IMG/VR virus record: IMGVR_UViG_3300029985_000036
Location: 22,570-86,569 of that record
Reading direction: 5' to 3' (one strand)
DNA from: a virus
DNA length: 64,000 bases
Shown: piece after piece, positions 10,744-52,835 of the stretch
Layout: each line of letters starts with the position of its first letter
How positions within the stretch are numbered: position 1 is the stretch's first letter
Notes under the pieces: generated by a model
Seen by the model: only the letters and a program-made list of their open reading frames with translations
Told to the model about the DNA's origin: nothing
Database searches by the model: none
Position numbers and translations under genes: made by a program

Positions 10744-10897
10744 GGATCAATCCCATCAAAGTGTGTTGTGGATTCTATTAGATGTCCATCCCAAGTATGA
10801 AATAACGGTTCTTTAAATATATGTAATTTTGAATTTGGGTAAACCATTGCATGAGGCGAATAACCTTTTTTATTCATAGTTATACAGGAGCAATTTT

Positions 10898-44159: not shown

Positions 44160-44540
44160 TCAATCCTTACGAACAACACCGCGGTTGTTTAGAAACGCAA
44201 TCAAATCCATCGCAACATATTTGAATGTCGGATCCGTCTGAAAGAAGATGGGATCGAACTCTACCACGGTATTCTCGACGAGACCCTTGTACACTTCCGC
44301 GGGGGTCTCTTCATCATAATACGCAACATCGTATCGACCAGTAAGTGGCACCAGACTAAAGCATCCCGCAGTACCATCCCGACGTCCGACGAGGACACAC
44401 TCTCTTTTCGGAATGGTTTTCGCACGCCAAGTCTCATTGAATTCTTGCATTGCATCATTCCGACCCGTGGGTCCGAACAGATTTGAAATGCAGAATGTCG
44501 GCGAAACAAACGAATTGACATTAAACATGGCACAACTCAC
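44160..44540 (-). CDS. Hypothetical protein
   Basis: ORF between promoter and terminator; start uncertain. Confidence 0.6.
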   Translation of the reverse strand: MSCAMFNVNSFVSPTFCISNLFGPTGRNDAMQEFNETWRAKTIPKRECVLVGRRDGTAGCFSLVPLTGRYDVAYYDEETPAEVYKGLVENTVVEFDPIFFQTDPTFKYVAMDLIAFLNNRGVVRKD

Positions 44541-44576
44541 TTACGTGTGAATAGATTTAGATACTTTGCTTTGTAT

Positions 44577-44613
44577 CTTCATTGTAGTGATATATATCTG
44601 AAATAGAATGAAA
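44577..44613 (-). promoter_or_regulatory. Phage early promoter
   Basis: Minus strand TTTCATTCTATTTCAGATATATATCACTACAATGAAG. Confidence 0.75.
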
Positions 44614-44652
44614 CGCTGTTTAATATTCAAATAAAAAAATAAAGAAACTTCG

Positions 44653-44685
44653 ATCCAGAGTCTTCCTTTGGGGAAGACTCTGGAT
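44653..44685 (-). terminator. Terminator of the ncRNA operon
   Basis: ATCCAGAGTCTTCC...GGAAGACTCTGGAT followed on minus strand by TTTCTTTATTTTTT. Confidence 0.75.
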
Positions 44686-45293
44686 GTACTATAGTTCCGA
44701 CGCTGTGCTCATGACCGTCCTGCTGACTTACCGTAATCGATACCAGAACGGATCCTAAGATCTCGTACTATTGGTGTATGATTATCGACGTCCTGGACGT
44801 GTGTCACCTTTTGGTATTGTCGGATAGGTGTGGGTGGTGTTGAGACCTCGTGAGGATCCCATCTCTGCTAGCTATTTGTGAAGCACTGGCATCCCATATT
44901 GCTTCTACAGACTCCAATTTATGGCTTCTGTACAGCCAGAGGCTCCTGTAGTCTGCAATTGGGCATTCACAAAACTCCTTTAGACGCTAGTGCGAGCTCC
45001 CCTCGCACGATTTTCGGCCATGTCATTACACTGCTTCCTCTGGTTATTTCTAATACAATGGGACGACAATAGTGGCGTGACTAATACCACTTTATCGACG
45101 GTATCAGACCACATTAAAGGTCCGATAAGTCTCAACAGCTTATGCGCCTACGTGTGTTCGTGCACGGGTGGTTCATCCGCTGTGTAACAAGCATCTCTCA
45201 ATCATGCATTCATGTTCACAACTGGGTGTGAATTATACATGTACACGAAGATCTGAATACTTGGGGTTGAGTTGAGACCAATGTGGTTCACCC
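44686..45293 (-). ncRNA. Large structured ncRNA (~600 nt) downstream of hammerhead 1
   Basis: No credible ORF; nested stems 44838-44846/45129-45137, 44875-44882/44966-44973, 44905-44910/44946-44951, 44990-44996/45002-45008. Confidence 0.55.
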
Positions 45294-45343
45294 GACATAC
45301 AAGCTTGTATGTTTCGCTCTTACCAAGGAGCTCATCAGGGGTG
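45289..45343 (-). ncRNA. Hammerhead ribozyme 1 (type I)
   Basis: CACCC CUGAUGA GCUC-cuugguaa-GAGC GAAA CAUAC-aagcuu-GUAUG UC/GGGUG: complete core, three stems, GUC cleavage between 45294 and 45293. Confidence 0.92.
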
Positions 45344-45633
45344 GAAAATCTATGGATGCAGGTGTACGAACAATGCCCGCAAGGCCTGCATCCATAGTTG
45401 CGCGGGTCCACAACTAGCTGTGGCAAAGGTGGCAGCGCCGGTGCCCCACAACCCCACGATCAACAAAGTTAGTTAACTTTGTTGCAGATAGCTATCGTAA
45501 CCCATCTCATGTATTGTGAGATGGGTTACGATAAGTCGCACCTTTCGATCAGTACAAACTAGCAATGTTTGGTTCTGCAGAACCAAACACAGACGCTGGA
45601 CCGATGGGGAGAATACAAGCGACCAAATTGTAG
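45344..45633 (-). ncRNA. Structured RNA between the two hammerheads
   Basis: Stems 45350-45362/45385-45397, 45461-45484, 45493-45509/45517-45533, 45566-45589, 45425-45431/45539-45545; no credible ORF. Confidence 0.6.
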
Positions 45634-45686
45634 ACATCCGACACACGTAGAGTGTGTTTCGACCTATAAGGTCTCATCAGGGATGT
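45634..45686 (-). ncRNA. Hammerhead ribozyme 2 (type I)
   Basis: ACAUCC CUGAUGA GACCU-uau-AGGUC GAAA CACAC-ucuac-GUGUG UC/GGAUGU; cleavage between 45640 and 45639. Confidence 0.92.
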
Positions 45687-45694
45687 TGTAGCAA

Positions 45695-45967
45695 AGTTGA
45701 CTTAGAGAATCAAACGGAAATATTTGTAGAGACTAGACTACCATATTCTCCAATTTGTTGTGACCCTAGTAAATGAATAGTGCAACCTATCAATAGATAA
45801 AACAAAGGGGCACCAGTGTTCTACTATGTACACGATTCAAACCAGGGACAAATCAGAGACGATCATCTACTCCACCCGAAGAGTCCATCCAGACAATACC
45901 GATGGGGGTCTTTTCCGTGTCACGTGTTCTCGACAGGACTTGCGTCCCTTGATTCTCTAAGTCAACT
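45695..45967 (-). ncRNA. ~270-nt RNA domain closed by perfect 19-bp stem
   Basis: AGTTGACTTAGAGAATCAA (45695-45713) pairs with TTGATTCTCTAAGTCAACT (45949-45967); internal GGAC-GCAA-GUCC GNRA hairpin. Confidence 0.6.
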
Positions 45968-45978
45968 CTAAAGAAAGC

Positions 45979-46068
45979 AGATCCTTTCTCAACTTTCGGA
46001 TCTATTATCAACCAGCATGCGGTACAATAACAATTAGAGTTTCATTATTGTGCTGAGACATATTGACA
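45979..46068 (-). ncRNA. Unknown pseudoknotted RNA motif, copy C
   Basis: AUGUCUCAGCACAAU..AUUGUACCGCAUGCUGGUUGAU..GAUCCGAAAGUUGAGAAAGGAUC. Confidence 0.7.
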
Positions 46069-46133
46069 GGGTCACTTACCTAATACCAAAGCTCCAACAC
46101 ATCAATAGGTGATAATATTTTTGTTATAGAAGT

Positions 46134-46263
46134 GGCCCTTTCTCAACCTTCGGGTCCTCATCAACCAGCATGCGGTATAACTTACTCAGGGTTACAGTCT
46201 ATCCCAACAGCCAAGAAGGAACAACTGTAATTGATTATGAGGGTTATGCTGAGACATATCATG
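46134..46263 (-). ncRNA. Unknown pseudoknotted RNA motif, copy B (long variable stem)
   Basis: AUGUCUCAGCAUAAC..GUUAUACCGCAUGCUGGUUGAU..GACCCGAAGGUUGAGAAAGGGCC. Confidence 0.7.
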
Positions 46264-46342
46264 CGCGTACAGACTAATTCTGAACGCTCAATGACAGGTT
46301 GCTGTCTAACTAAACTCTTTGTAATTGTTCCTCTAAAGGAAC

Positions 46343-46426
46343 GATCCTTTCTCAACTTTCGGATCTTCGTTAATCAGCATGCGCTACATTACTGCGGGGC
46401 AGAGATTGTGCTGAGACATGTCAACA
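46343..46426 (-). ncRNA. Unknown pseudoknotted RNA motif, copy A
   Basis: AUGUCUCAGCACAAU..AAUGUAGCGCAUGCUGAUUAAC..GAUCCGAAAGUUGAGAAAGGAUC. Confidence 0.7.
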
Positions 46427-46534
46427 GGGGAGAATCCATTGACAGATTAACGATACACTCATTTTCCACATAGAATAATTCTAGTGGGTGATTTGTTACT
46501 CCAACATCTATAAATTACAGATGTCTTTGTATAT

Positions 46535-46570
46535 CTCATAATTGTAATATATATCTGAATATGGATGAAC
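46535..46570 (-). promoter_or_regulatory. Phage early promoter driving the ncRNA operon
   Basis: Minus strand GTTCATCCATATTCAGATATATATTACAATTATGAG. Confidence 0.75.
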
Positions 46571-46599
46571 TTTATCCATATAATTATTAAAAGGTTCTT

Positions 46600-47080
46600 T
46601 TATTTTGCAGACCAAAGGATTTCATTAAATTCGTCAGTGGACACATTATGACATTGAACCAACGTGGCTTTTATTTCTGCCAAAGTTACTTTTCCAACAC
46701 CACCATTATCTCGAATACCATCTCGTATGAGATCTCCAACGGTATATCCATCAAAACGTGATGCTGGAATTACCAGTTTAAGTGACCACCGAGTACGATG
46801 TGTAAGTGATCCTGTGCCAATAAAATCCTTTAATAACATACTGCGGATATCGGCTGGAATTATATGTGTATTTTCCAGATACTTTTGGACACGTCGATAT
46901 CTGAGAACAATCGATTTTATCGTAGTCCCTGCTCGATTAAAGTATCGACCTGCTTCTATAGGTATGTCCCGCATCGACATAATCGGCTACTTCTTTTTCT
47001 GTAAATCCTCGAGCTTTGATACTTTTAATGGATTGTCTATTCTGATGGTGTTGAACATCGAAATCGGTTACATCAACCAT
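46600..47080 (-). pseudogene. Frameshifted HTH plus RNAP alpha-CTD-like gene
   Basis: RBS-led ORF 47080-46937 (..EVADYVDAGHTY) and ORF 46980-46600 (EAGRYFNRAGTTIKSIV..LTHRTRWSLK..TVGDL..GVGKVTLAEIKATL) join into one HTH near 46957. Confidence 0.55.
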
Positions 47081-52693: not shown

Positions 52694-52731
52694 TCGAACA
52701 GGGGGTTGGGCTTTCGCCCACCCCCTGTCGA
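52694..52731 (-). terminator. GC-rich terminator after tRNA-like RNA
   Basis: ACAGGGGGUGGGC-GAAA-GCCCAACCCCCUGU followed by U-rich run on minus strand. Confidence 0.7.
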
Positions 52732-52799
52732 GTTGTTGGAATCGGACCAACGACGATATGACGCAATGCATATGTTTTACCAACTAAACTAAACTCTGA
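52728..52799 (-). ncRNA. Degenerate tRNA-like RNA
   Basis: GAGUU/AACUC acceptor, UA-GUUU-AGUUGGUA-AAAC D arm, AUAUG-8nt-CAUAU anticodon arm, GUUGG-UCCGAUU-CCAAC T arm. Confidence 0.65.
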
Positions 52800-52835
52800 T
52801 TTCAAATAAGTAATATATATCTGAATCTGGATGAA
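52800..52835 (-). promoter_or_regulatory. Phage early promoter
   Basis: Minus strand TTTCATCCAGATTCAGATATATATTACTTATTTGAAA; shares a ~34-bp exact direct repeat with the promoter at 52550. Confidence 0.75.

What the first reader, a model, noticed from the sequence alone, without database searches (positions are those of the whole stretch)
45289..45686. Twin hammerheads release a 346-nt structured RNA that could circularise
Seen: two complete same-strand type I hammerheads with different stem sequences; cleavage would free 45639 to 45294 (346 nt). The fragment has 13-, 17-, 10- and 12-bp hairpin arms, a long-range AAAGGUG/CACCUUU pair and a possible pseudoknot (45376-45380 with 45402-45406). 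Established: the products carry 5'-OH and 2',3'-cyclic phosphate ends, the RtcB substrate, and tandem hammerheads generate circles in retrozymes. Inference: a phage-encoded circular or exonuclease-resistant RNA.
Basis: partly seen in the sequence, partly recalled or inferred. Interest (0 to 1): 0.78.

Follow-up and report, generated by a model that had tools for sequence, protein, structure and literature searches.

The report
Twin hammerheads in phage RNA operon
Two genuine-looking self-cutting hammerhead RNA motifs sit in a gene-free early transcript of a giant peat phage and most likely chop it into separate linear folded RNAs, a variant of a layout known in phages since 2011; nothing I could test supports an RNA circle.

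Summary
Two complete type I hammerhead motifs lie on the minus strand (45686-45634 and 45343-45289). Their cuts fall at 45640|45639 and 45294|45293, which bounds a 346-nt piece. My descriptor finds 2 in the window against a mean of 0.02 in 300 shuffles. Both score below Rfam's cut-offs.

They sit in a 1.9-kb ORF-free unit in a phage that encodes multisubunit RNA polymerases. The unit has its own repeated promoter-like motif and a terminator-like hairpin.

An unrelated peat phage (L003/L008) carries four hammerheads of the same design in a similar RNA-rich block. Three of them directly precede paralogous RNAs.

In four metatranscriptomes the RNA downstream of hammerhead 2 is assembled, and it stops 15-22 nt short of the cut in three runs. 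No contig crosses either cut and no joint was reported.

The circle is unsupported. The two hammerheads are not repeats of one unit. The joined ends would not rebuild stem I (-1.5 against -8.7 kcal/mol). No RtcB or RNA ligase is in the 38% of the genome held.

Best reading: ribozyme punctuation that yields linear RNAs. This scan has noted hammerhead-flanked non-coding RNAs in other phages before.

The parts
46544..46559 (-). Promoter-like motif (TTCAGATATATATTAC) heading the ORF-free unit; inferred early promoter for the virion RNA polymerase
   Evidence: The motif has 11 matches at up to 2 mismatches, all on the minus strand, against 0.15 expected. Exact copies also head the next gene (44587-44602) and the odd tRNA-like gene (52810-52825). 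Conserved AT-rich motifs of about 10 nt upstream of early operons are described for jumbo phages with their own RNA polymerases (PMC7598289, passage). RNA polymerase subunit families were found.
45634..45686 (-). Hammerhead 1 (type I); predicted cut between 45640 and 45639
   Evidence: Direct reading. Rfam Hammerhead_1 29.0 bits, cut-off 34, full-length match. Descriptor hit. Three-stem fold in the centroid.
45294..45639 (-). 346-nt piece between the two cuts: a 296-nt hairpin-rich body (45639-45344) plus most of hammerhead 2 at its 3' end
   Evidence: Coordinates. MFE -137.3 kcal/mol, z -6.5. No ORF of 80 aa or more under table 11, TAG=Q or table 4 that survives as a gene candidate. No similarity to the other modules or to the phage records.
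45493..45533 (-). Perfect 17-bp hairpin in the body
   Evidence: I1
45350..45397 (-). Perfect 13-bp hairpin with a 22-nt loop, just upstream of hammerhead 2
   Evidence: I2
45566..45589 (-). Perfect palindromic hairpin (12-nt arms with no spacer; about 10 bp plus a 4-nt loop when folded)
   Evidence: (I3)
45461..45484 (-). Perfect hairpin, 11-nt arms 2 nt apart (9-10 bp when folded)
   Evidence: (I4)
45289..45343 (-). Hammerhead 2 (type I); predicted cut between 45294 and 45293
   Evidence: Direct reading. Rfam HH9 core match 19.4 bits, cut-off 52. Descriptor hit. Three-stem fold in the MFE and the centroid.
44692..45293 (-). 3' RNA whose 5' end hammerhead 2 would make; this is the part of the unit seen in RNA libraries
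   Evidence: RNA contigs at 44697-45271 (X1), 44834-45271 (X3, adapter letters follow 45271), 45015-45278 (X4) and 44692-45180 (X2, a variant with 22 other letters and 27 gap letters). None crosses 45293/45294.
44629..44685 (-). Terminator-like 14-bp hairpin (44685-44672 with 44666-44653), followed after 5 nt by a U-rich run
   Evidence: Direct reading. The consensus scan did not flag it because the T run starts more than 2 nt after the stem.

Best explanation
HH1 and HH2 are active type I hammerhead ribozymes. They act as punctuation in a purely non-coding early transcript of about 1.9 kb in a jumbo phage that carries its own RNA polymerases.

As the RNA is made, each ribozyme folds and cuts itself after its GUC. 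This yields three linear RNAs:
- a 5' piece of about 0.9 kb, holding three copies of an unclassified knotted motif and a 270-nt module, and ending in HH1
- the 346-nt middle piece, a hairpin-rich body ending in HH2
- a 3' RNA of about 0.6 kb that runs to the terminator

Because the motifs are type I, the whole ribozyme stays on the upstream product as a folded 3' cap with a 2',3'-cyclic phosphate. The downstream product starts with a clean 5'-OH only 5-6 nt into its own sequence. The ribozymes therefore set exact 5' ends, uncouple the folding and decay of neighbouring RNA modules, and leave ends that the usual 5'-phosphate- and 3'-OH-dependent decay routes handle poorly.

Shown: motif integrity, rarity by chance, the ORF-free promoter-to-terminator setting, the same design in a second phage, and RNA contigs of the 3' RNA that stop just short of the HH2 cut.

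Inferred: cleavage itself, the early timing, end protection, and any role of the middle piece. I take the middle piece to be a separate linear RNA, by analogy with the second phage, where the piece between two hammerheads belongs to a paralogous RNA family.
For: - Core and stems are complete for both motifs.
- 2 sites observed against a mean of 0.02 in 300 shuffles.
- Both fold as hammerheads in context.
- There is no ORF of 90 aa or more between 44541 and 46599, and alternative codes do not rescue one.
- The promoter-like motif has 11 hits on one strand against 0.15 expected, and one heads this unit.
- A terminator-like hairpin closes the unit.
- PHROG RNA polymerase subunit families match at E 1e-135 and 2e-269.
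- A second phage (L003 and L008, one phage at 99.99% identity, no tblastx similarity to the window) has four type I hammerheads of the same build on one strand, downstream of the same knotted motif.
- Three of those four are followed at once by paralogous RNAs with a shared 5' segment. Two of them bound a 363-nt piece.
- Across the six distinct hammerheads, the 17 columns that are identical in all six (all conserved core positions plus the G-C, A-U and C-G pairs adjoining it) are invariant. 97.9% of 96 pair cells are paired. 13 of 17 pairs change on both sides.
- RNA contigs of the 3' RNA end at 45271, 45271 and 45278 in three runs from three studies, one with adapter letters beyond the end. 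None crosses the cut.
- Perreault et al. 2011 showed cleavage for clustered phage and prophage hammerheads in vitro and in E. coli, and proposed transcript processing (PMC3088659, passages).
Against: - Both motifs score below Rfam's curated cut-offs. The four in L003 are also missed at gathering level.
- Stem I is only 5-6 bp and open. I found no loop II/flank pseudoknot above chance in any of the 6 motifs. The tertiary contact that fast natural hammerheads use is therefore not evident, and cleavage could be slow.
- The pairing statistics are inflated, because the six motifs were picked by a descriptor that demands pairing.
- No orthologue of this very locus was found, so neither motif nor the middle piece has true comparative support.
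- The RNA ends lie 15-22 nt from the predicted cut, not on it. Contigs cannot show true ends. DNA carry-over in the libraries was not excluded by laying a silent stretch.
- No type I hammerhead of this build is in 5 cultured phiKZ-like phages (0 of 5), so this is not a general jumbo-phage trait.
Confidence: 0.6

Rival explanations
1. After double cleavage, the 346-nt piece is joined end to end into a circular RNA that accumulates. Joining would be by a host or phage RtcB-type ligase or by reverse hammerhead ligation.
For: The ends would be 5'-OH and 2',3'-cyclic phosphate, which is the RtcB substrate. Monomers released by type I hammerheads in animal retrozymes are circularised efficiently by RtcB in vitro: up to 80%, against 1-3% self-ligation (PMC7229834, passages). 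The size of 346 nt lies in the 170-400 nt range of those circles (same passages). The fold is very stable (z -6.5).
Against: The two hammerheads are not copies of one unit, and there is no tandem repeat. The junction would not rebuild HH2's stem I (-1.5 against -8.7 kcal/mol). In the predicted fold the ends are about 50 nt apart along the chain rather than side by side, and the circular fold is 5 kcal/mol worse than the linear one. No RtcB, Rnl1, Rnl2 or 2'-5' ligase family is in the 86.6 kb held, though the Rnl1 control matched nowhere and only 38% of the genome is held. No joint was reported in 4 RNA runs, but the piece has no cover there, so this is not evidence of absence. Perreault et al. 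looked for circular products from clustered phage hammerheads and report none.
Confidence: 0.08
2. Ribozyme-mediated splicing. After both cuts, HH1 remains on the 5' piece and docks the 5' end of the 3' RNA in its stem I. It then religates, removing the 346-nt piece like an intron.
For: HH1's stem I 5' strand pairs with the first nucleotides of the HH2 3' product almost as well as with its own partner (-5.3 against -6.5 kcal/mol; 5 pairs including one G-U). Perreault et al. list spliced products as a formal possibility.
Against: Short G-rich stem I strands make such a match easy to get by chance, since the six motifs use few sequence types. No contig joins 45640 to 45293. The 3' RNA contigs stop at 45271-45278 without running on into HH1 sequence, and one runs into adapter. 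Hammerhead ligation yields are low (1-3% in PMC7229834).
Confidence: 0.03
3. The motifs are not working ribozymes here. They are decayed or very slow, and the region acts as one long structured RNA in which they are just hairpins. Alternatively the ends seen in RNA data come from host RNases.
For: The scores are below the Rfam cut-offs. Stem I is short and open, and no tertiary contact is detectable. The RNA contig ends are 15-22 nt from the predicted cut. Long perfect hairpins nearby could be RNase III sites.
Against: Every conserved core position, the A15.1-U16.1 pair and the GUC triplet are intact in both motifs and in four more in another phage, while the stems differ with compensation. 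Two such sites by chance occurred in 0 of 300 shuffles. No RNase III family is in the held record, although the host's enzyme remains possible.
Confidence: 0.1
4. The cuts are real, but the 346-nt piece is only a spacer or by-product. The purpose of HH2 is to make the 5' end of the 0.6-kb RNA, and the purpose of HH1 is to free the upstream modules. The middle piece is then degraded.
For: Only the 3' RNA and parts of the upstream modules appear in the RNA contigs (absence of cover is weak evidence). The middle piece has no detectable relative anywhere I searched. It has no complementarity longer than 12 nt to the rest of the 86.6 kb.
Against: The fold is exceptionally stable, with four perfect hairpins and a closing stem. 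In L003 the piece between two hammerheads belongs to a paralogous RNA family, not to spacer sequence.
Confidence: 0.19

Closest known systems
Clustered hammerhead ribozymes in prophage and phage operons (Perreault et al. 2011, PMC3088659; passages read)
   Same: Several hammerheads lie close together on one strand of a phage transcript. Processing of a long transcript into unit-length RNAs was proposed there, and circular or spliced products were considered and not detected.
   Different: In that paper they flank protein genes or short gene blocks, many are type II, and many use a pseudoknot. Here both are type I with a short open stem I and no evident pseudoknot. What they flank is ORF-free structured RNA in a promoter-to-terminator unit of a jumbo phage. 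I could not see that paper's supplementary figures and dataset, which may hold non-coding examples.
Metazoan non-LTR retrozymes and satellite repeats with type I hammerheads (Cervera and de la Pena 2020, PMC7229834; passages read)
   Same: Type I hammerheads spaced a few hundred nucleotides apart. The released piece carries 5'-OH and 2',3'-cyclic phosphate ends and lies in the 170-400 nt range.
   Different: Retrozymes are tandem DNA repeats of one unit, so both ends belong to the same ribozyme, and the RNAs are shown to be circular. Here the two ribozymes and their flanks are unrelated in sequence, and no circle is seen.
Orphan structured RNAs found next to hammerhead and twister ribozymes (RAGATH motifs; recalled from Weinberg and co-workers, not read; only a search listing of 3 papers that mention the name)
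   Same: Unclassified folded RNAs sit in the neighbourhood of self-cleaving ribozymes in phage-like DNA.
   Different: No RAGATH family reaches its cut-off here. RAGATH-1-hammerhead scores 24.5 bits against a cut-off of 56.3 on HH1, and nothing matches the middle piece.
Engineered ribozyme-flanked RNA cassettes (ribozyme-guide-ribozyme designs and twister-flanked circular RNA expression; recalled, the latter mentioned in a PMC7229834 passage)
   Same: A 5' and a 3' self-cleaver release an RNA of exact length with 5'-OH and cyclic phosphate ends from a longer transcript.
   Different: Cassettes built for circles place the two ends side by side in a stem for RtcB. Here the predicted fold leaves HH2 (about 50 nt) between the paired 5' end and the 3' end.

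Membership tests
Hammerhead ribozyme, type I (Rfam RF00163, clan CL00010) | Conserved core CUGANGA ... GAAA, A15.1-U16.1 pair and an NUH cleavage triplet | tested here: met
   Both motifs read CUGAUGA, GAAA with A-U, and GUC. The same 17 columns are invariant across six motifs.
Hammerhead ribozyme, type I (Rfam RF00163, clan CL00010) | Three helices around the core, with stems II and III capped and stem I open | tested here: met
   Stems I/II/III are 6/5/6 bp (HH1) and 5/4/8 bp (HH2) by the descriptor. The same fold appears in the centroid of a 471-nt context.
Hammerhead ribozyme, type I (Rfam RF00163, clan CL00010) | Score at or above the family's curated gathering cut-off | tested here: not met
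   29.0 bits against 34 (HH1, Hammerhead_1) and 19.4 against 52 (HH2, HH9). No hammerhead at gathering level in the window or in L003-L011. This is a scoring threshold, not a structural feature. The long stem III and the short stem I cost bits.
Hammerhead ribozyme, type I (Rfam RF00163, clan CL00010) | Compensatory change in the stems among related copies | tested here: inconclusive
   13 of 17 pairs change on both sides, 97.9% of 96 cells are paired, and 0 of 500 shuffles reach this. However, the six motifs were chosen by a descriptor that requires pairing, and no orthologue of either motif was found.
Hammerhead ribozyme, type I (Rfam RF00163, clan CL00010) | Tertiary contact between stem I and loop II (loop-loop or pseudoknot) for fast cleavage | tested here: inconclusive
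   The best loop II/flank match is 4 bp for HH2 (67% of shuffles do as well) and 2 bp for HH1. None of the 6 motifs is below 0.05. Non-canonical contacts cannot be scored.
Hammerhead ribozyme, type I (Rfam RF00163, clan CL00010) | Self-cleavage at the predicted site | not testable with these tools
   There is only indirect evidence: RNA contigs stop 15-22 nt short of the HH2 cut and none crosses it.
Retrozyme / viroid-like hammerhead circular RNA | Tandem repeats of one unit, so that both ends of the monomer come from the same ribozyme | tested here: not met
   No alignment at E <= 1 involves the 346-nt piece among 8 pieces compared. HH1 and HH2 differ in all three stems.
Retrozyme / viroid-like hammerhead circular RNA | Joined ends rebuild a hammerhead stem I (needed for self-ligation) | tested here: not met
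   -1.5 kcal/mol for HH2's strand with the 5' end of the piece, against -8.7 for the native stem.
Retrozyme / viroid-like hammerhead circular RNA | Circular molecules detected (back-junction, RNase R resistance) | tested here: inconclusive
   No joint in 4 of the 24 listed RNA runs. These are contigs only, and none covers the piece.
Retrozyme / viroid-like hammerhead circular RNA | A 3'-phosphate/5'-OH RNA ligase is available | tested here: inconclusive
   RtcB, Rnl1, Rnl2 and 2'-5' ligase families give 0 matches in the 86.6-kb record, which is 38% complete. The Rnl1 control matched in no control genome. The host is unknown.
Clustered phage/prophage hammerheads (Perreault et al. 2011) | Two or more hammerheads on one strand within one phage transcription unit | tested here: met
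   Both lie on the minus strand, 346 nt apart, between the promoter-like motif at 46559 and the hairpin at 44685-44653. The phage identity rests on RNA polymerase, DNA polymerase and virion protein families.
Clustered phage/prophage hammerheads (Perreault et al. 2011) | They flank individual genes or short gene blocks | tested here: not met
   What they flank is ORF-free under table 11, TAG=Q and table 4.

The most novel reading that the evidence does not exclude
The 346-nt piece is deliberately excised and then rejoined. One route is a ligase-made circular RNA, in which case a DNA phage would be producing a viroid-sized circle from two unrelated hammerheads. The other route is an intron-like segment whose removal lets HH1 ligate the upstream RNA to the 0.6-kb RNA; HH1's stem I strand fits the HH2 3' product at -5.3 kcal/mol. 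Either would be the first natural case of hammerhead-driven circularisation or splicing in a bacteriophage transcript.
Probability: 0.1. Interest if true: 0.8.

Novelty: new variant of a known kind. Interest (0 to 1): 0.42.

Why it matters
The biological role of most bacterial and phage hammerheads is still open. In this locus the ribozymes have no genes to separate. They bracket folded non-coding RNAs in a unit with its own early-type promoter and terminator, in a phage that brings its own RNA polymerase. A second, unrelated peat phage uses the same build four times, three of them directly in front of paralogous RNAs.

That points to a simple, testable job: making exact 5' ends and separate lifetimes for phage non-coding RNAs. 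It also provides a short natural cassette in which end chemistry, stability and possible ligation can be tested. The RNA whose 5' end HH2 would make is present in peat and permafrost metatranscriptomes, so at least that part of the unit is expressed in nature.

I found no paper in the searched library that links hammerheads with jumbo phages in this sense. One search returned 3 papers, all on CRISPR, judged from listings only.

Tried and rejected
Relatives of this locus
- blastn (distant mode) of 44500-46700 against 50,697 phage records: no match.
- Both flanking proteins against IMG/VR: 0 confirmed loci each.
- Both flanking proteins against 5.8 billion proteins: only their own 90% clusters, 1 hit each.
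- The knotted-motif pattern in IMG/VR: 0.
- The L003 unit pattern in IMG/VR: 0.
- The metagenome scan gave 9 stretches. By blastn only 3 (L003, L006, L008) resemble the window, and only in the knotted motif. None resembles the hammerhead region or the 346-nt piece.
- The middle piece therefore has no comparative data.

Coding and known RNA families
- Recoding (TAG=Q, TGA=W) as a way to make the region coding: rejected.
- Known RNA families for the middle piece: none.
- Antisense target in the held genome: the longest match is 12 nt, which is chance level.

RNA cover
- No contig of runs X1-X4 lies on 45279-45768, which holds both hammerheads and the middle piece. The 3' RNA and parts of the upstream modules are covered in the same runs.
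- A hole in contigs proves nothing, so I do not count it against a stable or circular product.
- I laid 4 of the 24 runs listed. All are contigs, so true ends, strand and level cannot be read. I did not lay a silent stretch to exclude DNA carry-over.

Other checks
- Tertiary contact: no loop II/flank pairing above chance.
- RNase III in the phage record: none.
- Cultured phiKZ-like phages (phiKZ, 201phi2-1, EL, OBP, PhiPA3): 0 of 5 hold a match to model R1 at E <= 0.1. The same model finds both sites in the window's own record.
- Supplementary files of PMC3088659 (figures S2, S3 and the alignment dataset) were not opened. They may hold non-coding examples that would lower the novelty.
Full report
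WHAT IS THERE

On the minus strand the sequence holds two complete type I hammerhead motifs.

HH1 (45686-45634) has a 6-bp stem I (ACAUCC/GGAUGU), the core CUGAUGA, a 4-5 bp stem II, GAAA, a 6-bp stem III and GUC. The cut falls after C45640.

HH2 (45343-45289) has a 5-bp stem I (CACCC/GGGUG), the same core, a 4-bp stem II with an 8-nt loop, a 7-8 bp stem III and GUC. The cut falls after C45294.

It consists of a 296-nt body followed by all of HH2 except the 3' strand of stem I.

The body holds four inverted repeats that are 100% complementary, with arms of 17, 13, 12 and 11 nt. The whole piece folds far better than shuffles: -137.3 kcal/mol, z -6.5, 0 of 100 shuffles as good.

MORE THAN CHANCE, AND IS IT A HAMMERHEAD?

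At its curated cut-offs Rfam reports no hammerhead in the window. In a local E-value search HH1 matches Hammerhead_1 over the full model at 29.0 bits (cut-off 34). HH2 matches the HH9 core at 19.4 bits (cut-off 52).

A descriptor of my own requires the core, at least 3 bp in stems II and III, a U before a non-G cleavage base, and at least 4 bp in stem I. It finds exactly these two sites in 64 kb on both strands. In 300 dinucleotide-preserving shuffles the mean is 0.02; 6 shuffles have one site and none has two.

In the centroid fold of a 471-nt context both motifs form the canonical three-stem junction.

I did not find the tertiary contact that fast natural hammerheads use. Stem I is short and open, and the loop II/flank complementarity is at chance level. 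Cleavage is therefore likely, but its speed is uncertain.

SETTING

There is no ORF of 90 aa or more between 44541 and 46599. Reading TAG or TGA as sense does not create a convincing one.

A 16-nt AT-rich motif occurs 11 times at up to 2 mismatches, always on the minus strand, against 0.15 expected. Exact copies stand at three places:
- 46559-46544, just after the upstream gene
- 44602-44587, before the next gene
- 52825-52810, before a tRNA-like gene

A 14-bp hairpin followed by a U-rich run lies at 44685-44629. The hammerheads thus sit inside a promoter-to-terminator unit of about 1.9 kb.

That unit also contains three tandem copies of an unclassified pseudoknot-like motif at 46425-45975 (another finding of this scan) and a 270-nt module.

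The contig is an 86.6-kb IMG/VR record judged 38% complete. It encodes multisubunit RNA polymerase subunits (PHROG matches at 1e-135 and 2e-269) and a divergent family B DNA polymerase.

A review of such jumbo phages describes conserved AT-rich motifs of about 10 nt upstream of early operons, read by the virion polymerase (PMC7598289, passage). That this unit is early is my inference from that description.

RELATIVES

I found no relative of this very locus. A metagenome scan with the knotted-motif pattern returned 9 stretches.

Two of them, L003 and L008, are one phage (99.99% identity over 9.1 kb). They share no protein-level similarity with the window. They carry four type I hammerheads of the same build on the motif's strand. 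The other 7 stretches carry none.

In L003 the predicted cuts are at 10869|10868, 10506|10505, 9645|9644 and 9444|9443. Three of the four cuts are followed at once by paralogous RNAs with a shared 5' segment. The first two cuts bound a 363-nt piece. The third hammerhead starts 4 nt after a tRNA with a four-base anticodon.

An alignment of the six distinct hammerheads keeps the 17 columns that are identical in all six (all conserved core positions plus the G-C, A-U and C-G pairs adjoining it). 13 of 17 stem pairs change on both sides and 97.9% of cells are paired. These numbers are inflated, because a pairing descriptor selected the motifs. They do show that six different sequences satisfy one fold.

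The same model finds nothing in five cultured phiKZ-like Pseudomonas phages (0 of 5).

RNA EVIDENCE

24 metatranscriptome runs from peat, permafrost and one bioreactor hold parts of the unit. I laid four of them, from four studies; all are kept as contigs.

The RNA downstream of HH2 is assembled in all four:
- X1: 44697-45271
- X3: 44834-45271, with Illumina adapter letters beyond 45271
- X4: 45015-45278
- X2: a roughly 90% variant at 44692-45180

The contigs start just before the terminator hairpin. Three of them stop 15-22 nt short of the HH2 cut, and none crosses it. Parts of the upstream modules are also assembled (45769-45955, 46159-46474). No joint of any kind was reported.

This fits HH2 making the 5' end of a discrete RNA of about 0.6 kb, but contigs cannot prove ends. 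Nothing covers 45279-45768. I record that gap only as a gap.

THE CIRCLE

Circular hammerhead RNAs of retrozymes and viroid-like agents come from tandem repeats of one unit. Both ends of a monomer then belong to one ribozyme, and RtcB-type ligases close them efficiently (PMC7229834, passages).

Here the two ribozymes and their flanks are unrelated. The 5' end of the piece would pair with HH2's stem I strand at only -1.5 kcal/mol, against -8.7 for the native partner. In the predicted fold the 5' end pairs about 50 nt before the 3' end, and the circular fold is 5 kcal/mol less stable than the linear one.

No RtcB, Rnl1, Rnl2 or 2'-5' ligase family is in the held 38% of the genome. The host is unknown, so a ligase cannot be excluded.

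Perreault et al. 2011 raised circular and spliced products for clustered phage hammerheads and report that they detected neither (PMC3088659, passage).

HH1's stem I strand would accept the 5' end of the HH2 3' product almost as well as its own partner (-5.3 against -6.5 kcal/mol). That makes a splice-type ligation conceivable. No contig shows that junction, and so short a match is easy to get by chance.

MECHANISM I COMMIT TO

I read this as ribozyme punctuation of an early non-coding transcript (confidence 0.6). Each type I hammerhead stays on the upstream product as a folded 3' cap with a cyclic phosphate. It gives the downstream RNA an exact 5'-OH start.

The products are three linear RNAs. 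The 346-nt one is most likely a separate hairpin-rich RNA, by analogy with L003. A mere spacer role remains a serious rival (0.19).

Other rivals are inactive motifs (0.10), a circle (0.08) and a splice (0.03).

COMPARISON AND NOVELTY

The kind is known: clustered hammerheads in phage and prophage transcripts, with processing proposed in 2011.

The variant here differs in three ways:
- The ribozymes flank only non-coding RNAs.
- They lie in a self-contained early-type unit of a jumbo phage.
- They are type I with a minimal-looking stem I that Rfam's cut-offs miss.

A second phage repeats the design in front of a paralogous RNA family.

My searches of the held library found no paper that links hammerheads and jumbo phages in this sense (3 papers, all about CRISPR by their listings) and no report of phage hammerhead circles (listings only, apart from the papers named above).

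This scan has already noted hammerhead-flanked or hammerhead-containing non-coding RNAs in other phages, several of them jumbo phages. Within the scan this is therefore a further example, not a first.

LIMITS
- No orthologue, so there is no true covariation for either motif or for the middle piece.
- RNA data are contigs only.
- Only 38% of the genome is held.
- The host is unknown.
- Supplementary files of the papers were not opened.

Noticed in passing
L003:9100-12500 (minus strand); same in L008: A second peat phage has an RNA-rich block that contains two copies of the knotted motif with small ORFs between them, four type I hammerheads, and three paralogous units of roughly 330-365 nt that each start right after a hammerhead cut with a shared 5' segment. 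No Rfam family reaches its cut-off there except the tRNA.
   Followed up: partly
L003:9695-9771 (minus) and window 52730-52796 (minus): Both phages carry an odd tRNA. ARAGORN calls a four-base anticodon in L003. In the window, Rfam sees a tRNA at 35 bits with an 8-nt anticodon loop that ARAGORN misses. It has the early-type promoter motif in front and a GC-rich hairpin behind. In L003 a hammerhead starts 4 nt after the tRNA.
   Followed up: partly
L003:10115-10170 (minus): By eye, a tRNA-like remnant with D-arm-like and T-arm-like segments and a CCA-like end but no anticodon arm lies at the end of the second paralogous unit. I did not test it.
   Followed up: no
window 45975-46425 (minus): Three tandem copies of a motif with invariant segments, a variable hairpin insert and a possible pseudoknot. 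No Rfam match at E <= 10 apart from one chance-level sRNA hit. Another finding of this scan already covers it.
   Followed up: partly
window 45010-45067: In run X2 the RNA contig of the 3' RNA is a natural variant. 19 of its 22 substitutions and 2 of its 7 listed insertions or deletions are packed into this 58-nt segment, while the flanks are identical. This is a ready-made test of covariation for the 0.6-kb RNA.
   Followed up: no
window 45271: RNA contigs from two studies end exactly here, 22 nt inside the predicted HH2 3' product, one of them followed by adapter letters. This could be a secondary 5' trimming site, a reverse-transcription stop or duplicate reads.
   Followed up: no
window 658-61454, minus strand: The promoter-like motif TTCAGATATATATYAC has 11 matches in the window, all on the minus strand, and 2 more in the first 22.5 kb of the record. 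It marks a one-directional set of putative early units.
   Followed up: partly
window 45634-45686 with 45288-45293: HH1's stem I 5' strand can pair with the first five nucleotides of the HH2 3' product (5 pairs including one G-U; -5.3 against -6.5 kcal/mol for its own partner).
   Followed up: partly
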